Below the pieces are notes generated by a model, which did no database searches, was not told where the DNA came from, and saw only the letters and a list, made by a program, of their open reading frames with translations. Position numbers and translations under genes: made by a program. A stretch of 64,000 bases of DNA. Origin: Candidatus Udaeobacter sp. Its GTDB lineage: Bacteria > Patescibacteriota > Patescibacteriia > Magasanikbacterales > GWA2-37-8. This document shows positions 4,028 to 32,771 of this stretch, in pieces (the stretch's first letter is position 1; every line of letters starts with the position of its first letter). The DNA is taken from contig DATION010000002.1 of the NCBI GenBank assembly GCA_035473115.1, positions 105,368 to 169,367 of the forward strand, read 5' to 3'.

Positions 4028-5493
4028 TCAAAACCCGTTTCGCTCCCAGCCCGACAGGCTATCTCCATGTTGGCGGACTGCGCACAGCTCTATATTCTTA
4101 TTTATTTGCCAAAAAGAATGATGGTAAATTTTTGCTGCGTATAGAAGACACTGATCGCGAACGATATGTGGCCGATGGCGTAAAAAATATTTTGGAATCT
4201 TTATTTTGGGCTGGTATTGTGCCTGACGAAGGTGTAATTCAGGAAGAAAGTGGAAAAATCGGCGAAGTTGGAAAAAATGGTCCATATACTCAATCTGAAC
4301 GCTTGCCTATTTATAAAAAATATTCCGAACAACTTTTGAGCGAAGGTCATGCTTATTATTGTTTTTGCACATCCGAAAGATTAACTCAGCTGCGTGAACA
4401 GCAAACTGCCAGAAAAATGCCCACTGGTTATGATGGGCTTTGTTTAAAAATTGATCCAACCGAAGCAAAAACCAGAGCCGAAGCCGGAGAAAAATGTGTT
4501 GTTCGTTTAAAAATGCCAAAAAGCGGTGAAACAGTTTTTACTGATATGATTCGCGGTGAAGTTCGGTTTAAAAATGAATTAGTTGATGATCAGGTATTAA
4601 TGAAATCCGATGGCTACCCAACTTATCATTTTGCGGTAGTGGTAGATGATCATTTAATGGAAATTACTCATATTATTCGCGGTGAAGAATGGATTAGCAG
4701 CGTGCCAAAACATTTACAGATTTATAAATATTTTAGTTGGGAAGTGCCGCAAATGGCGCATTTGCCTTTGTTGCTTAATCCGGATAAATCCAAACTCAGC
4801 AAACGTCAGGGAGACGTGGCCGTAGAAGATTATAGAAAAAAAGGCTATCTGCCAGAAGCTCTACTTAATTTTGTGGCTTTTTTGGGTTGGAATCCAGGTA
4901 CGGAAAAAGAAATTTATTCTTTGGAGGAATTAGTTCAGGATTTTGATTTTTCTAAAGTTGGAAAAACCGGAGCAGTATTTAATATAGAAAAACTGGATTG
5001 GTACAATAAACAATATATTAAAAATTTATCTAATAAAGAATTGGTAGAAAAAGCTAAGTCATGGCTGCAAGAAACGGGAATTGATGTAAAGTCTGAAATT
5101 ATTGAAAAAGCTGTCAGTTTGGAAAGAGAAAGAATTACAACCTTGTCAGAATTACCAGAAGCCATTAAATTTGTATTTGAATTGCCGAATTATCATTCTG
5201 ATTTATTGGTTTGGAAAAAGAGCGATATTGAAGAAGTAAAGAAAATTTTACCAATTTTTGTAGAATTTGTTGATACAATTGGTATTCAAGATTGGAATAA
5301 AGAAACCCTTAGCCAAAAGATAGGGGAATGGTCCGAACAAAATGGTTTTTCCAGAGGTTCAGTGCTTTGGCCGCTGCGTGTTGCTTTATCCGGTCAAGAA
5401 AATTCTCCAGGCCCATTTGAGATCGCGGAAGTTTTGGGAAAAGAAGAAACTTTAAACAGGCTTCAGTTGGCAGTTAAAAAATTAAGCATCTAG
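4024..5493 (+). CDS. gltX: Glutamyl-tRNA synthetase
   Basis: Class I HIGH region (RFAPSPTGYLHVGG) and KLSKR (KMSKS-like) motif. Length is typical. Confidence 0.9.
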   Translation: MIKTRFAPSPTGYLHVGGLRTALYSYLFAKKNDGKFLLRIEDTDRERYVADGVKNILESLFWAGIVPDEGVIQEESGKIGEVGKNGPYTQSERLPIYKKYSEQLLSEGHAYYCFCTSERLTQLREQQTARKMPTGYDGLCLKIDPTEAKTRAEAGEKCVVRLKMPKSGETVFTDMIRGEVRFKNELVDDQVLMKSDGYPTYHFAVVVDDHLMEITHIIRGEEWISSVPKHLQIYKYFSWEVPQMAHLPLLLNPDKSKLSKRQGDVAVEDYRKKGYLPEALLNFVAFLGWNPGTEKEIYSLEELVQDFDFSKVGKTGAVFNIEKLDWYNKQYIKNLSNKELVEKAKSWLQETGIDVKSEIIEKAVSLERERITTLSELPEAIKFVFELPNYHSDLLVWKKSDIEEVKKILPIFVEFVDTIGIQDWNKETLSQKIGEWSEQNGFSRGSVLWPLRVALSGQENSPGPFEIAEVLGKEETLNRLQLAVKKLSI

Positions 5494-7745: not shown

Positions 7746-9888
7746 TATGAAAAAAACATCTGAAAGAAATTTAAACAAATTTTTTAACCCAAACTCAGTA
7801 GCAATTTTGGGAGCTTCTCGCGACGAAAAAAAACTTGGTCATATTGTTTTAAAAAATATTGTTAATTCCGGTTTTAGAGGAAAAATTTTTCCGGTTAATC
7901 CTAACTCAGAAAATATAATTGGCATTGATTGTTATAAAAATTATAAAGATCTACCAGAATCTCCGGATTTAGCAATCTTGGCTTTGCCGGCAGCTCTGGC
8001 CATTTCTTTGCTAGAAGATATTGCCAAAAAAAACACAAAAAATATTATAATTTTCAGCGCTGGTTTTAAAGAAGCTGGCCCGGAAGGAGAAAAAATGGAA
8101 AATGATCTGCGATTCTTGGCCGAAAAGCTTGGTTTAAATGTTCTTGGTCCAAATTGTTTGGGATTTGCCAGTACTTTAAGCTCTCTAAATGCTACCTTTA
8201 GCAAGGTTGGAGGTGAGAAAGGAAATTTGAGATTTATGTCTCAATCCGGAGCTCTGGCTTCGGCAATTTTTGATTGGGCGCAGGAAAATAATTTTGGATT
8301 TAGCGAATTTATTACTTTGGGCAACAAAGCAGTTTTAAATGAAAATGATATTTTAAAGTATTGGCTTAGCCAGCCAAAACCAAAATTAAACCAAACCGGT
8401 TTATCAAATTATCAGCCAATTGGTTTGTACTTAGAATCAATAAACGCTGGTCGAGAATTTTTAGAACTGGCCTCTAAAGCTTCTCTTAAAGATCCCATTT
8501 TTATTTTAAAGCCAGGCAAATCAAAACACGCTCAGCAAGCTATTCATTCTCATACTGGCTCGATGGCCGGAGACGATGCGGTACAAGATGCAGCCTTTGC
8601 TCAAGCGGGAATAATACGCTGTCAGGGGATAGAAGATATGTTTGATCTGGCCAAAGTTTTTTCTTGGGAAAATGCTCCGCGCGGACCAAAAGTGGCGATA
8701 ATTTCTAATGCCGGCGGACCTGCAGTAATTAGTACTGATGCTTTGGAAGTCGAAGGTTTAGAGTTGGCAGCTTTGAGCCAGAAAACTTTAACTAAATTAA
8801 AAAACAATTTACCAGCCGCTTCTAATATTTTTAATCCGGTTGATGTTTTGGGTGATGCTTTATCTGATCGTTATTATGAAGCTATAAATGATGTTTTGGC
8901 AGAAAAAAATGTTGACGCTTTAGTAGTTATTTTAACTCCGCAAGTAATGACGGAAGCTGAAGTTACTGCGGAGAAAATTGCCGCATTATCTGCCAAATAC
9001 GGCAAACCAGTGGTCTGTTCGTTTATGGGTGGAGAGATGATTGAAGATGGTGAAAAGATTTTGAATAAATACAAAATTCCATCTTTCCGTTTCCCGGAAC
9101 GAGCGGTCAAAGCATTAGCTAAAATGTGGCAATGGCAGAGTGGAATTAAAAAAAGAAGTTTAAAACTTAAAAATTTAAAACCGCTTGCAAAAAATATAAC
9201 TATCAAAATTGATAAATTAGTAAAATCTGCAGAGAAAAATAACAAAGTTTTACCGGCTGCTCAAGCTGATCAGATTTTAAGTTTATCTGGAATCAAAGTT
9301 CCACCAGCAACTAATATCAAAAATTTAATTGAAGCTCAGCAATTTTCTGAGAAAAATAATTGGCCAGTAGTTTTAAAAATTTCTTCTCCGGCTATGCTGC
9401 ATAAGACCGAAGCGGGTGGAGTAATAAAAAATATAAAGAGTAACGAAGATTTGGAAAAAGCTTGGAATAAAATCAGTTCTGTATTTAAAAAACTGCCAAA
9501 TAAAAAAGATTCATCTATTCAAATCCAAAAGCAGGTTGATTCGGGAGTGGAAGTAATAGTCGGCATAAAACATGATGCCAGCTTTGGCAATGTTTTAATG
9601 TTTGGAGCCGGAGGAATTTTGGCCGAGCTGGTATGGGATAGTAATTTAAAAATGTTGCCTGCTGATGAAAATGGAATTAGAGATTTAATATTTAAATCCA
9701 AAGTTTCCAAAGTGTTAAAAGGTTTTAGAAATCAAAAAGTGTACGCTGTAAATAAATTGGTAGATTTGATTGTTAAGTTAAGCAATTTAGCGCAGTCAGT
9801 TCCTTATTTTAGCGAAATCACAATTAACCCAATTATTGTTACCGAAAAAGATGCTTGGGCAGTAGATCCAAGAATTATTTTAAAATAG
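7746..9888 (+). CDS. Acetate--CoA ligase (ADP-forming), fused alpha/beta (CoA-binding, succinyl-CoA-synthetase-like flavodoxin and ATP-grasp domains)
   Basis: N-terminal SVAILGASRD CoA-binding motif, a His-loop-like HSHTGSMAG and a C-terminal ATP-grasp domain. The start was chosen at ATG 7746 rather than 7708 to avoid overlap with ddl. Confidence 0.75.
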
Positions 9889-12463: not shown

Positions 12464-12932
12464 CCCTAAAGAAATTTTATTGCTTTACGCTACTAATTCT
12501 GGCAGCACGTTTGTATCCGGACAAATTATTAAAGATGTTTTGTCTCCGGATTTGGCTGTAAATATGCAAAATACCCTGGAATTTAATCCGGTAGATATCA
12601 AAAATTACGATACAATTATTTTAGGCTCGCCAAGCTGGGAGAGTAGGGGAGAGGAAGGTATGCCTACGGAAACAATGCTTAAACTATTCGATGTTTGGTC
12701 TAAAGAAGATTTTTCTAATAAAAATTTTGTTATTTATGGCTGCGGCGATGATGCTTATATAAATTTTTGCGGCGCGGTTGATCAGATGGAAAAGTTTGTT
12801 AACTTGGTAAAAGGCAAATTAATTTTTTCTTCGCTGCGTTTGAACGCTTTCTTTTTTGAATTAGATAAAAACGTGGAATTAACCAAAAAATGGGCAATTG
12901 GTTTAAAAGAAAAATTAAAGACTTTAGTTTAA
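12456..12932 (+). CDS. Flavodoxin-like protein
   Basis: ILLLYATNSGST...ILGSPSW flavodoxin fold signature. Its start overlaps the oxidoreductase beta stop (translational coupling). Confidence 0.6.
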   Translation: MNSPKEILLLYATNSGSTFVSGQIIKDVLSPDLAVNMQNTLEFNPVDIKNYDTIILGSPSWESRGEEGMPTETMLKLFDVWSKEDFSNKNFVIYGCGDDAYINFCGAVDQMEKFVNLVKGKLIFSSLRLNAFFFELDKNVELTKKWAIGLKEKLKTLV

Positions 12933-13891
12933 TTTTTGCCGCTGTGGAACTTTTTGTGGATGTCGCGCAGATGCGGATTAGTAAGATGAGTATAAATTTG
13001 CGTGGTTACTATATTTTTGTGTCCTAAAAGCTCTTGTACCGAACGCATATCCGCGCCTTGCTGCAATAAATCGGTGGCAAAACTGTGGCGCAGGGTATGC
13101 GGGGTTGCTTCTACTGGTAAACCAGCCATCACTGTATATTTCCTCACCAGTCTTTCGACTGATCTTTGAGTTAAGCGATGTTCGTTATCTTCTTCATCTT
13201 TTTTGTAATTTATAAATAGGGGAGCATACATGTCTTTTCTGGTTTTCAGGTAGTTGGCCAAAGCAGTCAAAGCTCGATTGGAAAAATAGATCGTTCGCAC
13301 GGATCCGCCTTTACCAGAGATACTTAATTCTTGGTCAGTAAATTTTCCTTTGGTTAAATCGGCAACATTAAACTGTCTTATATTAAGTGAGGTTAATTCG
13401 GAAACACGCATACCTGTAGAAAATAGTATTTCTAAAATAGCTCGATCGCGTAAACCTTCTGGAGCAGATAAGTCAGGCATCTGCATCAGTTTTTCTACCT
13501 GTTCAAATTTTAAAAATTTAATAGTTTTGTCTTTGTCAGTTAATTTTGGCAATTTTATTTTTTCTGAAGGCAAAGAAATAATGTCTTTTTCGGCAAAATA
13601 GTTTAGCAGGTTACGAATAGCGATAAGGTAGTAGTTTTGGGTCGTTTTTTTGGTATATTTGCCCTTAGAATCCTTTTTACGAGATAGATAGACCCGGTAT
13701 GACCAAATGTGCTCTGGAGTGAGTTCGTGGGGCTTTAAAGAGCTTAAATTGGACTCTGCCAACCAAGCAGTAAAGGTGCGGAGGAAGTTATTGTAGTTAC
13801 GGGTAGTTACCGGACTTAAACCTCTTTCTACCTCGCAGTATTCAAGAAAGGTAAGTATATGTTGGGGGATAGGTTTGTTGGATTGTTGCAT
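12929..13891 (-). CDS. Tyrosine site-specific recombinase (XerC/XerD-like integrase)
   Basis: N-terminal SAM-like core-binding domain. Catalytic HTLRHSFAT...LGH...TQIYTH with the terminal Tyr. Confidence 0.85.
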   Translation of the reverse strand: MQQSNKPIPQHILTFLEYCEVERGLSPVTTRNYNNFLRTFTAWLAESNLSSLKPHELTPEHIWSYRVYLSRKKDSKGKYTKKTTQNYYLIAIRNLLNYFAEKDIISLPSEKIKLPKLTDKDKTIKFLKFEQVEKLMQMPDLSAPEGLRDRAILEILFSTGMRVSELTSLNIRQFNVADLTKGKFTDQELSISGKGGSVRTIYFSNRALTALANYLKTRKDMYAPLFINYKKDEEDNEHRLTQRSVERLVRKYTVMAGLPVEATPHTLRHSFATDLLQQGADMRSVQELLGHKNIVTTQIYTHLTNPHLRDIHKKFHSGKN

Positions 13892-14506: not shown

Positions 14507-15136
14507 ATGAATCTAATAGAATTTATAGAAAGAACTAAGGGGTGGTTTGATAAAAATTGGATAGTTCTTTTAATTGGTTTTATAGCTGGTTGGTTTTTAG
14601 AACCAATGAGAGCTTTATTTAATGATTGGTTAAAAAATCAAATTGTTAAATTAGGTACAAGGATTGAAAGATTTGGAAAAGTTAAATATAAATTATCAAA
14701 AACTGGAGTTCCTATTGATGTTACAGGTATGCATTCAGGCGGGATTTTATCGGCAGTAAGTATAGTACCTTCAATTGACATTGAAACTGATCATATTGAT
14801 TTATTTACTGGTTATAAAGTCGAGATTTTTATTATAAATAATAAAAGAAGATTTAAAACACAACATAATTATTTTCATAAAAAATGCCATTGGTTATGGT
14901 CTTATACGCTTAATCAAATAAATACTTTCCCATTATCTATTGAAAATCTTCATTTTATTGATAATGAACCAATGAGAAAGCCGTACTATCAACTTTCAAC
15001 GGAAGTAGCAAGGATTGGCGTTCCCTTGGATGAAATTCGGGAAGAATTTGTAGATGTTCTGGTTTATATTAATGATAAGCTTGCAATTAAAGATAAAGTA
15101 AAAATTTTTAAAACGGGTAGTTACTTAATAGATTAA
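14507..15136 (+). CDS. Hypothetical protein with an N-terminal transmembrane helix
   Basis: 209-aa ORF with AT-rich codon usage like the host. No recognisable domain. Confidence 0.45.
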   Translation: MNLIEFIERTKGWFDKNWIVLLIGFIAGWFLEPMRALFNDWLKNQIVKLGTRIERFGKVKYKLSKTGVPIDVTGMHSGGILSAVSIVPSIDIETDHIDLFTGYKVEIFIINNKRRFKTQHNYFHKKCHWLWSYTLNQINTFPLSIENLHFIDNEPMRKPYYQLSTEVARIGVPLDEIREEFVDVLVYINDKLAIKDKVKIFKTGSYLID

Positions 15137-15306: not shown

Positions 15307-16320
15307 TTACTTCCAGTAAACCTTTTCCCCAAAGCGTAAATCAATATATTCTTTAGGTTTAATGGTGGAAAGAGTCTGTTTAAGTACATTTATTTGGCTA
15401 TCAACACTATTTGCCGGTTGAAAGATAATTTTCCATGGGCTGGCAGTTTCAATGCTTATTCCGGAATAAAGATCGTCTAAAGTAAAGAATTCAATCCCCA
15501 CTACCCTATCTTGCTTGTTTGTTTTAAACCAAGAGATAATTGCCGCAATCTGTTCAGGAGGCAAAATATGTTCCTGTTTTTCGGCAACTTCTAAGCCTCG
15601 TTTATCATAAACTAGTGGGTAATCACCAAACAATTTATTAATTTTTTTGTAGTCTGGTGTGTGTTCAAAGGTAGTAGAAGCCAGTTGAGTAGAAGTATTG
15701 TTTAAAGCAGCTAAACTAATAACGGTACTAGTATTAATTTTTTGTGATACTTCATAAGGCTGCACATCCTGTAAGAACTTAGTAGCCATACCAGAACTAT
15801 CGAGTAAGAAATATTTTTTTCCATTATCATAAATAATAGATGAGATTTTTTCTTTAACTTCAATATTTATCTGGTTAGGGAAAACTTTGGTAATTTTTAT
15901 AGTTTCAAAAGGAAATTTTTGATATAATCCCTGCTCCATCTCGGCGGCATCTACCAAAAAATAATTATTTAAAGACAAAAAACTTTTTTTATTTAAATAA
16001 TTTTCAAAAATAAATTTATCCATCTCATCTTTAGTGGTAATATTTAGGCCAAAATAATTTATTTTATTGATTTTAAAATAAGAGGCATAGGCCAAATAAG
16101 CCATCCAGCCGACCAAAATAATGATTAGGATAGTAATCTTGATTTTTGTCCCGCTTATTTTTTTGGTTTCTCTGTAAGGATTGCTTTTGTAATGAAACTT
16201 ATCTTGCGGAGCGGCGTTTATAGTTTTTTTTCTTTTAAAAATACGAAAAAAATTTTCCTTCCAACTGGTGTAAGGCTTATGCTTTTCAAAAGCGTACTCC
16301 GAGCGTATTTTTTTCATCAT
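15307..16320 (-). CDS. ftsQ: FtsQ/DivIB-like cell-division protein
   Basis: Basic cytoplasmic N-terminus, a single transmembrane helix, then a POTRA-like segment (KVFPNQINIEVKEK resembles the FtsQ P-LxIxVxER motif). Confidence 0.55.
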   Translation of the reverse strand: MMKKIRSEYAFEKHKPYTSWKENFFRIFKRKKTINAAPQDKFHYKSNPYRETKKISGTKIKITILIIILVGWMAYLAYASYFKINKINYFGLNITTKDEMDKFIFENYLNKKSFLSLNNYFLVDAAEMEQGLYQKFPFETIKITKVFPNQINIEVKEKISSIIYDNGKKYFLLDSSGMATKFLQDVQPYEVSQKINTSTVISLAALNNTSTQLASTTFEHTPDYKKINKLFGDYPLVYDKRGLEVAEKQEHILPPEQIAAIISWFKTNKQDRVVGIEFFTLDDLYSGISIETASPWKIIFQPANSVDSQINVLKQTLSTIKPKEYIDLRFGEKVYWK

Positions 16321-30352: not shown

Positions 30353-32110
30353 CTAATCTATAAAACCGCCAGCTTGGACTTTCCAAAGCTTTTCGTAAAT
30401 ACCCGGATTTTTTAATAATTCGGTATGAGTGCCTTCTTCGGCAATTTTGCCGTCTTTAATGACAATAATACGATCCATCTTCATAATTGTCGATAAACGA
30501 TGAGCTACCACCAAAACAGTTTTACCTTGGATTAAAACATTGAGAGCGTCTTGAATTAATTTTTCCGATTCAGAATCCAAACTGGAAGTAGCTTCGTCCA
30601 AAATTAAAATCGGCGCGTTGTGCAAAATAGCTCGCGCAATCGCCACCCGCTGTCTTTCACCGCCTGATAGTTTTACGCCGCGTTCGCCAACATAGGTATT
30701 ATAATCTTCTGGCAAATCCTTAATAAATTCATGACAATGAGCCAGTTTAGCGGCTTTGATGACTTCTTCCTTGCTGGCCGAAGGTTTGCCGTAGCGAATA
30801 TTTTCTAGCAGTGTTCTGTGGAAAAGAATCGGATCTTGCGGAACCATACTAAGATTTTGCCATAAACTTTCTTGAGTAACTTTAGAAATTTCTTGGTTAT
30901 CAATCAAAATTTTTCCTCCGGAAACATCATGCATGCGCAGTAATAATTTGATTATCGTAGTTTTACCGGCTCCGGAAGGTCCAACCAAAGCAATCTTTTC
31001 TTTGGGAGCGATAGTTAAGTTAAATTTATGCAAAATTCGTCTGGTTTCGTGATAATAAAAATTTACATCTTTAAATTCTACTTTTCCTTCGGACAATTTT
31101 AAATTTTTAGCATTAGCAATATCGGTGATTTCGTGCGGTTCACTCAAGATTTCAGTCATTTCTTCAGCTTCAGCCAAATCTTCGTAGATATGCTGAATAA
31201 CCCGGCCAAAATCCCAGCTTTGGTGAACGACAATGAAAACATATGATTGAATTAAAACAAAATCACCAACGGTTAAAATATTTTCTTTCCAGAGTTGGAT
31301 AGCCAAATAGATACTGCCAATCTCTAAAGCCGTGGTCAGCAAAGATTGAACTGCTTCATAAATATTGGTTAAATTCCAGCTAAACCAACGCAGTCTTTTT
31401 ACTTCTCCAACCGCTTTGGCAAAATTTTTAATTTCGCGTAAATAACCGCCAAATAATTTAACATTGACATTATTGGTAATTGTGTCGGCGAGCAGTCCGG
31501 TGGCTTTGGAGTCGGCTTCGCTACGCTCTAAATCATAACGGCTTTTAAACTTAGTAAAAATTAAATTAATAGCAAAAAATATCAGTAGCCATAGCGCTAC
31601 ACCCAAGCCTAATTTTAAATTTCTTTTAGTTAAAACAAATAAAATTAAACCTATACTTACAGCCAATTGGATAATATTAAAGAAAATCCGATCAGTAATA
31701 TCTTCAAAGGAACGCGTAAAACGATTTACTTTCTTCACCAAAGATCCAACAAAAGTATTGTTAAAAAAAGAAAAGGAATGCTTATGCAAATATTTAAAGC
31801 AAGCATCCGAAAGACCGGCCATGATTGAAGATTGAAAATAAGAAACAAAAAAAGTTGCTAAACGCCAACTGATCCAAGCGATACCCTCTATCAGAACAAT
31901 GATGCTTAAAACATGCAAAATCTGTGGAGCCAAAGCGGCTTTGGTTTCAGATTGAGTTAAGATATCAAAAATTTTCTTAAAATATATAGGCGTAATTGCC
32001 GCTGCCGCAGAAGCGCTGACAATTCCGGCCACAACAATAAAACCAGAAATGCCATGTTTACGCACTTCCTGCCAAAAAATTTTTAACGTTAATTTAGTAT
32101 TAACTTTCAT
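30353..32110 (-). CDS. ABC exporter, fused permease-ATPase (MsbA-like)
   Basis: Six-transmembrane domain, then Walker A (GPSGAGKTT), the signature LSGGERQR and Walker B (ILILDEAT). No C39 peptidase domain. Confidence 0.85.
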   Translation of the reverse strand: MKVNTKLTLKIFWQEVRKHGISGFIVVAGIVSASAAAAITPIYFKKIFDILTQSETKAALAPQILHVLSIIVLIEGIAWISWRLATFFVSYFQSSIMAGLSDACFKYLHKHSFSFFNNTFVGSLVKKVNRFTRSFEDITDRIFFNIIQLAVSIGLILFVLTKRNLKLGLGVALWLLIFFAINLIFTKFKSRYDLERSEADSKATGLLADTITNNVNVKLFGGYLREIKNFAKAVGEVKRLRWFSWNLTNIYEAVQSLLTTALEIGSIYLAIQLWKENILTVGDFVLIQSYVFIVVHQSWDFGRVIQHIYEDLAEAEEMTEILSEPHEITDIANAKNLKLSEGKVEFKDVNFYYHETRRILHKFNLTIAPKEKIALVGPSGAGKTTIIKLLLRMHDVSGGKILIDNQEISKVTQESLWQNLSMVPQDPILFHRTLLENIRYGKPSASKEEVIKAAKLAHCHEFIKDLPEDYNTYVGERGVKLSGGERQRVAIARAILHNAPILILDEATSSLDSESEKLIQDALNVLIQGKTVLVVAHRLSTIMKMDRIIVIKDGKIAEEGTHTELLKNPGIYEKLWKVQAGGFID

Positions 32111-32130
32111 TATAAATATTAAACCGAGAT

Positions 32131-32259
32131 TTATTTAGCGCTGCATTCACAACCGCAAGTCTCATCACATTCGCAACAATGCGAACAGATGCTCTCGTTG
32201 CATAAACATTTTTCATCCTCCGCTTCAAACGGAAGACTGCATTTAGAACAACTTTCCAT
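32131..32259 (-). CDS. Cysteine-rich acidic 42-aa peptide (MESCSKCSLPFEAEDEKCLCNESICSHCCECDETCGCECSAK)
   Basis: Too short for the supplied ORF track. 11 Cys out of 42 residues. An extended -10 box (TGGTATAAT) lies on the minus strand at 32293-32301. Its stop is 20 nt upstream of the ABC exporter start. Confidence 0.4.
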   Translation of the reverse strand: MESCSKCSLPFEAEDEKCLCNESICSHCCECDETCGCECSAK

Positions 32260-32306
32260 ATATATTTATATTAAAAAAATAATTACAGATAAATTATACC
32301 AAAATC

Positions 32307-32335
32307 AAAAATCCGAGGCAACATCTCGGATTTTT
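32307..32335 (-). terminator. Rho-independent terminator after atpC
   Basis: AAAAATCCGAG-loop-CTCGGATTTTT hairpin followed by a T-rich tract on the minus strand. Confidence 0.6.
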
Positions 32336-32351
32336 GATTTGTCAAGAAGTA

Positions 32352-32771
32352 TTAGTTTGGTAAATTTCGATATTTTTTTGCTACTCGTATTTTGTTCACT
32401 TCCCTATCAATTAAAGCTTGCAGCTTGGCATAATCAACATCTTGGGAATTTTTAATATTTTTCATCTGTTCCTCGGCTCTCTGTCTGGCTTCTTCGGCTT
32501 TGGTAATGTCTATATCAGCCACTCTTTCGGCATGATCAGCTAAAATAACAACTTCATTTTGACCACGCACTTCCAAAAACCCACCCGATACCGCCAAATT
32601 ATGTTCACCGGTTTTATCTTTTATTTTTAACTCGCCAGCCTTTAACACAGAAATCAAAGGGATATGATTTGGCAAAATCGTAATTTCACCGCTCATGGTA
32701 GGAACAGAAACTTGAGAAATCTCATTTTCGTAAATAACTTTTTCCGGTGTGACGATTTTAAATTTAAGCAT
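32352..32771 (-). CDS. atpC: F-ATPase epsilon subunit
   Basis: Family-typical N-terminal beta-sandwich and C-terminal helices. Last gene of the atp operon. Confidence 0.85.
   Translation of the reverse strand: MLKFKIVTPEKVIYENEISQVSVPTMSGEITILPNHIPLISVLKAGELKIKDKTGEHNLAVSGGFLEVRGQNEVVILADHAERVADIDITKAEEARQRAEEQMKNIKNSQDVDYAKLQALIDREVNKIRVAKKYRNLPN

What the first reader, a model, noticed from the sequence alone, without database searches (positions are those of the whole stretch)
32131..32301. Unannotated 42-aa peptide with 11 cysteines immediately upstream of an ABC exporter
The minus-strand ORF MESCSKCSLPFEAEDEKCLCNESICSHCCECDETCGCECSAK has CxC, CC and CxCxC patterns and an acidic spacer. 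The 26 % Cys content is far above the random expectation for this AT-rich DNA. An extended -10 box (TGGTATAAT) lies about 25 nt upstream, and the stop is 20 nt before the MsbA-like ABC exporter start on the same strand. The peptide sits just after the atpC terminator. It could be a metallothionein-like metal-binding peptide, a RiPP or bacteriocin precursor exported by the adjacent pump, or a small zinc-ribbon regulator. No modification enzyme is evident nearby.
Basis: seen in the sequence. Interest (0 to 1): 0.55.

Follow-up and report, generated by a model that had tools for sequence, protein, structure and literature searches.

The report
Conserved 11-cysteine mini-protein of Magasanikbacteria
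The 42-residue, 11-cysteine reading frame is a real gene under selection. It belongs to a small, undescribed protein family of Magasanikbacteria and most likely binds several metal ions; its tight coupling to the neighbouring ABC exporter is seen only in this genome and its closest relative.

Summary
A 42-aa ORF (32131-32259, minus strand) with 11 Cys lies between the atpC terminator and an ABC half-transporter, behind a TGGTATAAT extended -10 box.

It is not a chance ORF. Twenty-six distinct homologues, all from Magasanikbacteria (Patescibacteria/CPR) assemblies, keep all 11 Cys invariant. The Cys codons drift freely between TGC and TGT, and synonymous change far exceeds non-synonymous change.

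The family matches nothing in Pfam, NCBIfam, PDB or Rfam and is only ever labelled "hypothetical protein".

The best reading is a cytoplasmic metal-thiolate mini-protein: a zinc-finger-like core of 8 Cys plus a C-x-C-x-C tail, resembling a metallothionein. The RiPP/bacteriocin and Cys-sensing leader-peptide readings are disfavoured.
- There is no leader/core architecture.
- There is no maturase within ±20 kb; the only radical SAM enzyme is RlmN.
- The exporter has no peptidase domain.

The exporter's membrane domain matches only Atm1/ABCB6/ABCB7 structures, but it lacks their glutathione pocket. In most relatives the exporter carries its own conserved upstream element, and five lineages keep the peptide with no adjacent exporter. 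Peptide-exporter coupling therefore holds only for this genome and locus L001. Metal binding itself is untested.

The parts
32352..32771 (-). atpC (ATP synthase epsilon subunit), last gene of the atp operon and the upstream neighbour
   Evidence: Pfam ATP-synt_DE_N E=2.9e-27 and ATP-synt_DE E=7.5e-9
32302..32340 (-). Intrinsic-terminator-like hairpin after atpC: 16-bp stem, 7-nt loop, U-run
   Evidence: RNA fold -20.3 kcal/mol, z=-5.1, 0 of 200 shuffles as good. The same hairpin-then-promoter layout is seen in L001, L015, L017 and L042.
32293..32321 (-). Promoter-like site for the small gene: TTGCCT, 17-nt spacer, TATAAT with TG extension (TGGTATAAT at 32293-32301)
   Evidence: Consensus scan gives 10/12 matches plus TG. 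TG(G/A)TATAAT is conserved in L001, L015 and L042. Function as a promoter is inferred.
32131..32259 (-). Small gene for a 42-aa protein with 11 invariant Cys. Pattern: C-x2-C-x(9-11)-C-x-C-x4-C-x2-C-C-x-C-x3-C-x-C-x-C
   Evidence: ORF list. 26 distinct homologues with all 11 Cys invariant. Purifying selection. Cys content beyond chance.
32111..32130 (-). 20-nt spacer between the small gene and the exporter gene, with no terminator or promoter. Implies co-transcription in this genome.
   Evidence: Sequence and scan. In L001 the stop overlaps the exporter start as TAATG.
30353..32110 (-). ABCB-type half-transporter (585 aa, membrane domain plus ATPase domain). Membrane domain is closest to the Atm1/ABCB6/ABCB7 clade but lacks the glutathione pocket.
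   Evidence: Pfam ABC_membrane plus ABC_tran. MsbA model 378 bits against a cut-off of 602. With the membrane domain alone, all 19 PDB matches are Atm1-clade, best NaAtm1 E=4e-15. TM6 motif not conserved (one search compared with PMC9000953).

Best explanation
The ORF is a genuine, translated gene for a 42-residue acidic cytoplasmic mini-protein whose fold and function depend on metal ions held by its 11 invariant cysteines.

Shown:
- The gene is real and under purifying selection.
- The Cys pattern is invariant across the family.
- The family is restricted to Magasanikbacteria.
- It has no relative in curated protein or RNA libraries.
- It usually sits in the conserved block atpC - peptide - ABC exporter - UvrD-like helicase.

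Inferred:
- The first eight Cys (C4, C7, C18, C20, C25, C28, C29, C31) form a compact binuclear zinc-finger-like core.
- The C-terminal C35-x-C37-x-C39 tail adds a further thiolate site that shares bridging Cys. The protein would then hold about 3-4 metal ions (Zn, Cu(I) or Cd) as a metallothionein-like buffer or chaperone.
- In this genome and its closest relative (L001) the gene has been fused into one transcription unit with an Atm1-clade-like ABC exporter. Here the two may act together in metal or thiol homeostasis.
- In most relatives the two genes are expressed separately.
For: Real gene:
- 26 distinct homologues at 40-62 % identity keep M1 and all 11 Cys invariant.
- Every Cys column mixes TGC and TGT (102:97 overall).
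- Mean synonymous difference is 0.90 against non-synonymous 0.32 over 153 pairs. dN/dS is 0.11-0.53 for the 15 pairs with the lowest synonymous divergence.
- The Cys content is about 34 times the proteome mean and beyond all 100 simulations.

Metal-thiolate protein:
- Motifs are CxxC, CxC and CC, and the Cys count is odd. No Sec-type signal peptide or hydrophobic segment is visible by eye, and the protein is acidic.
- The AlphaFold model has mean pLDDT 75.8. Residues 1-30 score about 80 and the tail about 50.
- Shorter co-located relatives end after the eighth Cys (L010, L019, L062, L067). Others have reshuffled CxC repeats (L035). This plasticity is typical of metallothioneins.
- The only matches to solved structures, all non-significant, are zinc fingers.

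Locus specificity:
- All 21 acidic small ORFs with at least 8 Cys in 80 exporter loci (about 0.9 Mb, both strands scanned) lie on the exporter's strand. Twenty are within 1.7 kb upstream of it and one (L010) is just downstream of it.

Exporter:
- Its membrane domain matches only Atm1/ABCB6/ABCB7-type transporters. That clade handles metal-thiol-peptide complexes (abstracts of PMC11143254 and PMC9000953).
- The spacer is 20 nt here and the stop and start overlap as TAATG in L001.
Against: - No metal-binding measurement exists.
- No member matches any Pfam metallothionein or zinc-finger family, even at E=10.
- The alignment behind the structure model is shallow (16 sequences), and four of the five models were poor.
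- Aromatic residues are present (F11; Y/F at positions 26-27 in some members), unlike classical metallothioneins.
- No metal-sensing regulator or metal pump lies nearby.
- The link to the exporter is weak outside this lineage. L083 and L217 have atpC and the peptide with no exporter. L081/L082, L084 and L216 have neither neighbour.
- Many exporter orthologues lack the peptide.
- The exporter has its own conserved upstream element in most relatives.
- The exporter lacks the Atm1 glutathione-pocket motif.
Confidence: 0.55

Rival explanations
1. It is a structural zinc-finger adaptor or regulator. The Cys only hold the fold of a small module that binds a partner, such as the ATP synthase, the exporter or a nucleic acid. 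It does not buffer or carry metal.
For: - Cys spacing is rigid across 26 members, as in zinc fingers.
- Eight-Cys relatives fit two Zn(Cys)4 sites.
- The weak matches are FYVE, PHD, MYND and RING-type fingers.
- In several genomes the gene follows atpC by only 8-45 nt with no terminator, so it would be the last gene of the atp operon.
Against: - Eleven invariant Cys is more than a two-zinc finger needs, and the CxCxC tail is invariant too.
- Few non-Cys surface residues are conserved (only N21/E22/S23 and G36, and only partly) to form a binding face.
- The neighbours vary.
Confidence: 0.2
2. It is an iron or iron-sulfur redox mini-protein of rubredoxin, desulforedoxin or ferredoxin type.
For: - The protein is very acidic and Cys-rich, like small ferredoxins and rubredoxins.
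- It has CxxC together with a CC pair, as in desulforedoxin (comparison from my own knowledge).
- One member has a faint Fer4 match at E=0.93.
Against: - There is no CxxCxxCxxxCP motif.
- There is no significant Fer4 or rubredoxin hit in any of the 26 members.
- There is no redox-enzyme partner in any context.
Confidence: 0.08
3. It is an exported peptide (bacteriocin, RiPP or signal) that is the cargo of the adjacent ABC exporter.
For: - It lies immediately upstream of, and in the same operon as, an ABC exporter here and in L001.
- Cys-rich small ORFs recur next to this exporter's orthologues.
Against: - Conserved Cys run from residue 4 to residue 39, so there is no leader/core division and no double-glycine site.
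- The exporter has no C39 peptidase domain.
- There is no maturase in the window within ±20 kb; the one radical SAM enzyme is RlmN. None is seen in other contexts either; the radical SAM enzyme in L083 is also RlmN.
- An odd Cys count and a strongly acidic peptide are unlike disulfide-rich secreted peptides.
- The peptide is retained where the exporter is absent, as in L217, a close relative with 83 % identical atpC.
Confidence: 0.07
4. It is a cysteine-sensing upstream ORF. Translation of 11 Cys codons gauges Cys-tRNA supply and, through translational coupling, sets expression of a thiol exporter.
For: - The spacer is 20 nt here and the stop and start overlap as TAATG in L001.
- Polycysteine leader ORFs are known in mycobacteria (from my own knowledge).
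Against: - Cys positions and spacing, and several non-Cys residues, are conserved as in a folded protein.
- In most relatives a conserved promoter-like element lies between the peptide gene and the exporter gene.
- The peptide occurs in front of unrelated genes.
- There is no alternative terminator/antiterminator structure.
Confidence: 0.04

Closest known systems
Metallothioneins, for example bacterial SmtA/BmtA, mycobacterial MymT, fungal Cu-metallothioneins and the mammalian alpha-domain with its M4Cys11 cluster (comparison partly from my own knowledge)
   Same: - Very small size and about 26 % Cys.
- CxC, CC and CxxC motifs.
- Cys invariant while other residues drift.
- Cytoplasmic, with no cofactor enzymes needed.
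- Relatives show reshuffled Cys patterns.
- 11 Cys equals the ligand count of an M4Cys11 cluster.
   Different: - No sequence match to any Pfam metallothionein family.
- Acidic rather than Lys-rich.
- Contains aromatic residues.
- No His ligands as in SmtA or MymT.
- No SmtB/ArsR-type regulator next to it.
- Metal binding is untested.
Binuclear cross-brace zinc fingers (FYVE, PHD, RING, MYND) and small archaeal or bacterial zinc-finger micro-proteins
   Same: - Paired Cys knuckles separated by about 10 residues.
- Eight Cys in about 30 residues in the core.
- The model contains short hairpins and helical turns.
- The only hits, all weak, are of this type.
   Different: - No significant sequence or fold match.
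- No His ligands.
- An extra invariant CxCxC tail.
- A stand-alone 42-aa protein rather than a domain.
Phytochelatin with HMT1, or glutathione with Atm1/ABCB6: metal-thiol-peptide export systems
   Same: - A Cys-rich peptide is encoded next to a half-transporter whose membrane domain matches only the Atm1/ABCB6/ABCB7 clade.
- That clade binds Cd with glutathione or phytochelatin (PMC11143254 abstract).
   Different: - The peptide is ribosomally made and ten times larger than glutathione.
- The exporter lacks the PLxxLGxxYR TM6 motif and most pocket residues; only Q and G are kept (one search compared with PMC9000953).
- Adjacency is not conserved across the family.
SCIFF and ranthipeptide precursors (six Cys in about 45 residues)
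   Same: Similar length and many Cys.
   Different: - No adjacent radical SAM/SPASM maturase.
- No NCBIfam SCIFF hit.
- No Gly-rich leader.
- Different phylum.

Membership tests
Metallothionein (operational class) | Low mass, Cys content of roughly 15-30 %, CxC/CC/CxxC motifs | tested here: met
   42 aa with 11 Cys (26 %). All 11 are invariant in 26 members.
Metallothionein (operational class) | Sequence membership in a described metallothionein family (Pfam metallothionein families, including the bacterial one) | tested here: not met
   None of the 26 members hits any metallothionein model at E<=10. The only metallothionein hit was on a divergent relative, L035, to Metallothio_5 at E=0.63, which is not significant.
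Metallothionein (operational class) | Binds several metal ions in thiolate clusters | not testable with these tools
   Needs metal titration followed by ESI-MS or ICP-MS, and 113Cd NMR.
Metallothionein (operational class) | Absence or scarcity of aromatic residues | tested here: inconclusive
   The window protein has F11. Several members have Y or F at positions 26-27.
RiPP or bacteriocin precursor with dedicated ABC exporter | Leader plus core architecture or a double-glycine cleavage site | tested here: not met
   Invariant Cys span residues 4-39 of 42, and there is no GG motif.
RiPP or bacteriocin precursor with dedicated ABC exporter | Maturase (radical SAM/SPASM, LanM, YcaO and similar) in the neighbourhood | tested here: not met
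   Genes within ±20 kb are housekeeping, and the only radical SAM enzyme is RlmN. No maturase is seen in the other contexts.
RiPP or bacteriocin precursor with dedicated ABC exporter | C39 peptidase domain on the exporter | tested here: not met
   Pfam finds only ABC_membrane (residues 25-294) and ABC_tran, and the protein starts directly with the membrane domain.
Cysteine-responsive leader peptide (attenuator) | Always directly precedes the regulated gene, and the peptide sequence apart from the regulatory codons is free to vary | tested here: not met
   The peptide occurs before unrelated genes or without the exporter. A conserved promoter-like element separates it from the exporter in most relatives. 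Spacing is invariant and dN/dS is below 1.
Atm1/ABCB7/ABCB6/HMT1 exporters (neighbouring gene) | Membrane domain most similar to this clade | tested here: met
   With the membrane domain alone, all 19 PDB hits at E<=1e-5 belong to this clade. The best is NaAtm1 at 4e-15.
Atm1/ABCB7/ABCB6/HMT1 exporters (neighbouring gene) | TM6 motif PLxxLGxxYR and the conserved glutathione-pocket residues (T317, R324, R328, N387, Q390, L433, G437, R441 in AtAtm3; PMC9000953) | tested here: not met
   In the alignment to NaAtm1, FRPLDMLGMVYR corresponds to VHQSWDFGRVIQ. Of the pocket residues only Q and G are kept, and one R becomes K.
MsbA lipid A flippase (neighbouring gene) | Reaches the NCBIfam equivalog cut-off | tested here: not met
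   TIGR02203 scores 378 bits against a cut-off of 602. PRK11176 scores 301 against 867.
Cross-brace binuclear zinc fingers | Significant fold or profile similarity to FYVE, PHD or RING modules | tested here: inconclusive

The most novel reading that the evidence does not exclude
The peptide and the Atm1-clade-like exporter form a two-gene metal or thiol detoxification module. A ribosomally made, Cys-rich peptide would replace glutathione or phytochelatin as the thiol ligand. CPR bacteria are generally thought to lack glutathione synthesis; this is from my own knowledge and was not checked here. The metal-loaded peptide, or metal handed over from it, would be the exporter's substrate. This would be a gene-encoded analogue of the phytochelatin-HMT1 system.
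Probability: 0.12. Interest if true: 0.75.

Novelty: new variant of a known kind. Interest (0 to 1): 0.45.

Why it matters
Few bacterial metallothionein families are known, and none is reported from the candidate phyla radiation in the papers searchable here. These organisms have very small genomes, so a 42-codon gene kept under strong selection probably does something useful.

If the peptide binds metals, it adds a new, sequence-unrelated family of prokaryotic metal-thiolate proteins. It would also be an unusually small scaffold with 11 ligands. If it works with the Atm1-like exporter, it would show how cells thought to lack glutathione handle thiophilic metals.

On the practical side, the gene is missed or left unnamed in most assemblies. 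It illustrates how small ORFs escape annotation.

Tried and rejected
- **Single-sequence searches.** The word-index search with the peptide found nothing, and an exact look-up of the peptide found nothing. Homologues came only from genomic loci of the exporter, a full HMMER scan and profile searches.
- **Metagenome scan with a degenerate TGY pattern.** This was my error: the pattern should have included non-Cys positions.
- **RNA element instead of a gene.** There is no Rfam match. The mRNA fold is unremarkable at z=-2.3. The protein-level conservation decides the question.
- **RiPP cluster.** The radical SAM genes in the window and in L083 are both RlmN.
- **Metal-related neighbours.** The only hint is a sub-threshold Nramp-like membrane protein before the peptide in L081, at 24 bits against a cut-off of 29.8. 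It is not enough to build on.
- **Literature.** Four of the five searches looked for Cys-rich small proteins or metallothioneins in CPR/Patescibacteria or next to ABC transporters; none found a description. The fifth retrieved the Atm1 literature.

Full report
**1. The observation**

The minus-strand ORF at 32259-32131 encodes MESCSKCSLPFEAEDEKCLCNESICSHCCECDETCGCECSAK, which is 42 aa with 11 Cys.

- atpC lies upstream at 32352-32771 (Pfam).
- A strong hairpin with a U-run follows atpC at 32302-32340. Its folding energy is -20.3 kcal/mol, z = -5.1.
- TGGTATAAT lies at 32301-32293, with a TTGCCT 17 nt upstream.
- The stop codon is 20 nt from the ATG of a 585-aa ABC half-transporter at 30353-32110.

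The Cys content is not a chance product of this 37 % G+C DNA. The 54 long ORFs of the window contain 0.77 % Cys. The next-richest stop-free 42-codon stretch has 7 Cys. In 100 Markov simulations the maximum was 5-8.

The lack of a Shine-Dalgarno sequence means nothing here, because only 5 of 54 genes have one.

**2. It is a real gene**

Relatives of the exporter were fetched from one genome per species. They come from Magasanikbacteria and other Patescibacteria.

Scanning these loci turned up the same small ORF on the same strand upstream of the exporter in 12 of them. A full HMMER scan of 1.84 billion representative proteins found 8 more. Profile searches of 5.8 billion proteins found 13 clusters, named "hypothetical protein" or not at all.

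In all there are 26 distinct sequences, 40-62 % identical to the window protein. M1 and all 11 Cys are invariant. The pattern is C-x2-C-x(9-11)-C-x-C-x4-C-x2-C-C-x-C-x3-C-x-C-x-C.

Selection acts on the protein:
- At every Cys column TGC and TGT are mixed (102:97 overall).
- The mean synonymous difference is 0.90 and the non-synonymous difference is 0.32.
- dN/dS is 0.11-0.53 for the 15 pairs with the lowest synonymous divergence.

No Rfam family matches the region.

**3. What it is not**

None of the 26 members, and none of nine more divergent co-located Cys-rich ORFs, matches a Pfam family at E<=10. The window protein also has no NCBIfam match at E<=1. This covers all metallothionein, zinc-ribbon and SCIFF models. 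A profile search of all PDB sequences gives only a FYVE finger at E=6.9.

*Not a RiPP or bacteriocin precursor.*
- Conserved Cys begin at residue 4, so there is no leader region.
- The exporter has no peptidase domain.
- The genes within ±20 kb are housekeeping: PBP2, MreBC, DciA, a UvrD-like helicase, the atp operon, TatD, CvpA, tRNA synthetases, NifS, ThiI and others.
- The single radical SAM enzyme is RlmN. The radical SAM enzyme near the peptide in L083 is also RlmN.

*Not a Cys-sensing leader peptide.* The conserved spacing argues against it, and so does the genomic context described below.

**4. Context**

The block atpD-atpC-peptide-exporter-UvrD-like helicase is conserved in this lineage. 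About 15 of 20 distinct contexts have the peptide between atpC and the exporter.

The exceptions matter:
- L083 has atpC and the peptide, followed by unrelated genes.
- L217 is a close relative (atpC 83 % identical). It has atpC, the peptide and the helicase, with no exporter.
- L081/L082, L084 and L216 have neither neighbour.
- Insertions occur on either side of the peptide gene. They lie between atpC and the peptide in L036 and L010, and between the peptide and the exporter in L015.
- Many exporter orthologues have no peptide at all.

In several genomes the peptide gene follows atpC by 8-45 nt with no terminator. In others, including the window, a terminator and an extended -10 box intervene.

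In most relatives a conserved element separates the peptide gene from the exporter gene. It consists of TGTAACA, 22 nt, then (A)CGTCTTCTATAGT, followed by a short hairpin. The exact 14-mer occurs in 9 loci and only at this position. The core with up to 2 mismatches occurs in 29 of 80 loci within 200 nt upstream of the exporter, where about 3 would be expected from its frequency elsewhere. It is also present in loci with no peptide.

The window lacks this element, and L001 has none either. In the window the spacer is 20 nt. In L001 the stop and start overlap as TAATG. Tight coupling to the exporter is therefore a derived feature of this sub-lineage.

One observation still ties Cys-rich peptides to this locus. 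All 21 acidic small ORFs with at least 8 Cys in about 0.9 Mb of exporter loci (both strands scanned) lie on the exporter's strand. Twenty are within 1.7 kb upstream of the exporter and one is just downstream of it. They include forms the family profile does not recognise:
- Eight-Cys forms that end after CC-x-C.
- A CxC-repeat form in L035.
- Tandem pairs in L019.
- A pair that flanks the exporter in L010.

Because atpC is also present in nearly all of these loci, shared ancestry and functional linkage cannot be separated.

**5. The exporter**

It falls well below the MsbA cut-offs. With its membrane domain alone as query, every one of the 19 PDB matches is an Atm1/ABCB6/ABCB7-type transporter. 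The best is the NaAtm1 heavy-metal exporter at E=4e-15.

That clade moves glutathione- or phytochelatin-bound metals and sulfur species (abstracts listed).

The clade's hallmark TM6 motif PLxxLGxxYR and most conserved pocket residues (PMC9000953) are not kept. FRPLDMLGMVYR aligns with VHQSWDFGRVIQ. The exporter resembles Atm1 in its membrane domain, but I do not file it as a glutathione-type Atm1. Its substrate is unknown.

**6. Mechanism**

The AlphaFold model, built on a 16-sequence alignment, has mean pLDDT 75.8. Residues 1-30 score about 80 and the last 12 about 50-68. It contains short strands and helical turns. Four of the five models were poor.

I combine this with two other points. Eight-Cys relatives stop exactly after the eighth Cys. 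The weak hits are all zinc fingers.

From these I infer a binuclear zinc-finger-like core plus a CxCxC tail that completes a further thiolate site through bridging Cys. This would be a metallothionein-like protein holding about 3-4 metal ions.

It is probably cytoplasmic: by inspection it has no Sec-type signal sequence and no hydrophobic segment, and its Cys count is odd. It is dispensable, since it has been lost in several relatives. Both points fit an accessory role in metal buffering or metal hand-over.

All of this section is inference. Metal binding, the metal's identity and any hand-over to the exporter are untested.

**7. Verdict**

The metallothionein-like or zinc-finger-like reading is the best supported. 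The RiPP and leader-peptide readings are unlikely. The exporter link is local to this sub-lineage.

I rate the interest as moderate. This is a new sequence family of a known kind of protein in a poorly understood phylum. There is a small chance that it is part of a new peptide-based metal export system.

Noticed in passing
L002:5900-6000, L004:5890-6000, L006:5895-6000, L011, L014, L072 and others; absent from window 32111-32130: A conserved bipartite element lies 45-140 nt upstream of the exporter orthologues. It consists of TGTAACA, 22 nt, then (A)CGTCTTCTATAGT, followed by a short G+C hairpin. It is found at no other place in the loci and also occurs in loci without the Cys peptide or atpC. 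It looks like a gene-specific promoter or operator with an unusual 22-nt spacing. The regulator is unknown.
   Followed up: partly
L010:5709-5843 and 7817-7945; L013:1978-2058; L019:4541-4684 and 4707-4853; L034:5781-5927; L035:5802-5942; L062:5730-5834; L067:4697-4783: Other acidic Cys-rich small ORFs (8-12 Cys in 26-48 aa) sit at the same locus in other Patescibacteria. The family profile does not recognise them. They include tandem pairs and a pair that flanks the exporter. They are probably fast-diverging relatives with reshuffled Cys patterns.
   Followed up: partly
L015:4528-5835, L013:205-1554, L019:2085-3416, L213:2974-3722: A CPA2-type Na+/H+ exchanger gene (Pfam Na_H_Exchanger, E=9e-51) is inserted into the atpC-exporter block. 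It sits on different sides of the Cys-peptide gene in different genomes.
   Followed up: partly
window, all 54 long ORFs: Only 5 of 54 genes have a Shine-Dalgarno-like motif within 20 nt of the start. Translation initiation in this organism is therefore largely independent of Shine-Dalgarno pairing.
   Followed up: no
L001-L003, L005, L007-L009 and many others (record titles): Many assemblies that carry this clearly patescibacterial gene block are titled 'uncultured Gammaproteobacteria bacterium' in the public records. This looks like systematic mislabelling of a batch of third-party assemblies.
   Followed up: no
window 12929-13891 (-): A tyrosine recombinase or phage-integrase family gene (Pfam Phage_integrase, E=5.8e-39) lies next to two ORFs with no family match (14507-15136 and 15307-16320). 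It could be XerC/D or a small mobile element.
   Followed up: no
window 30353-32110 (-), ATPase domain; also L013, L042, L053: The exporter's ATPase domain carries a conserved His-Cys-His motif (AHCHEFI) where, from memory, many ABCB exporters have a motif without Cys or His. One of the protein's only two Cys is in it.
   Followed up: no
L081:4059-5087 and 5307-5489: In one lineage the Cys peptide follows a membrane protein with a sub-threshold Nramp-like match (24 bits against a cut-off of 29.8). It precedes a 60-aa membrane ORF that begins MFTKECCG. This is a faint hint of a link to metals.
   Followed up: partly
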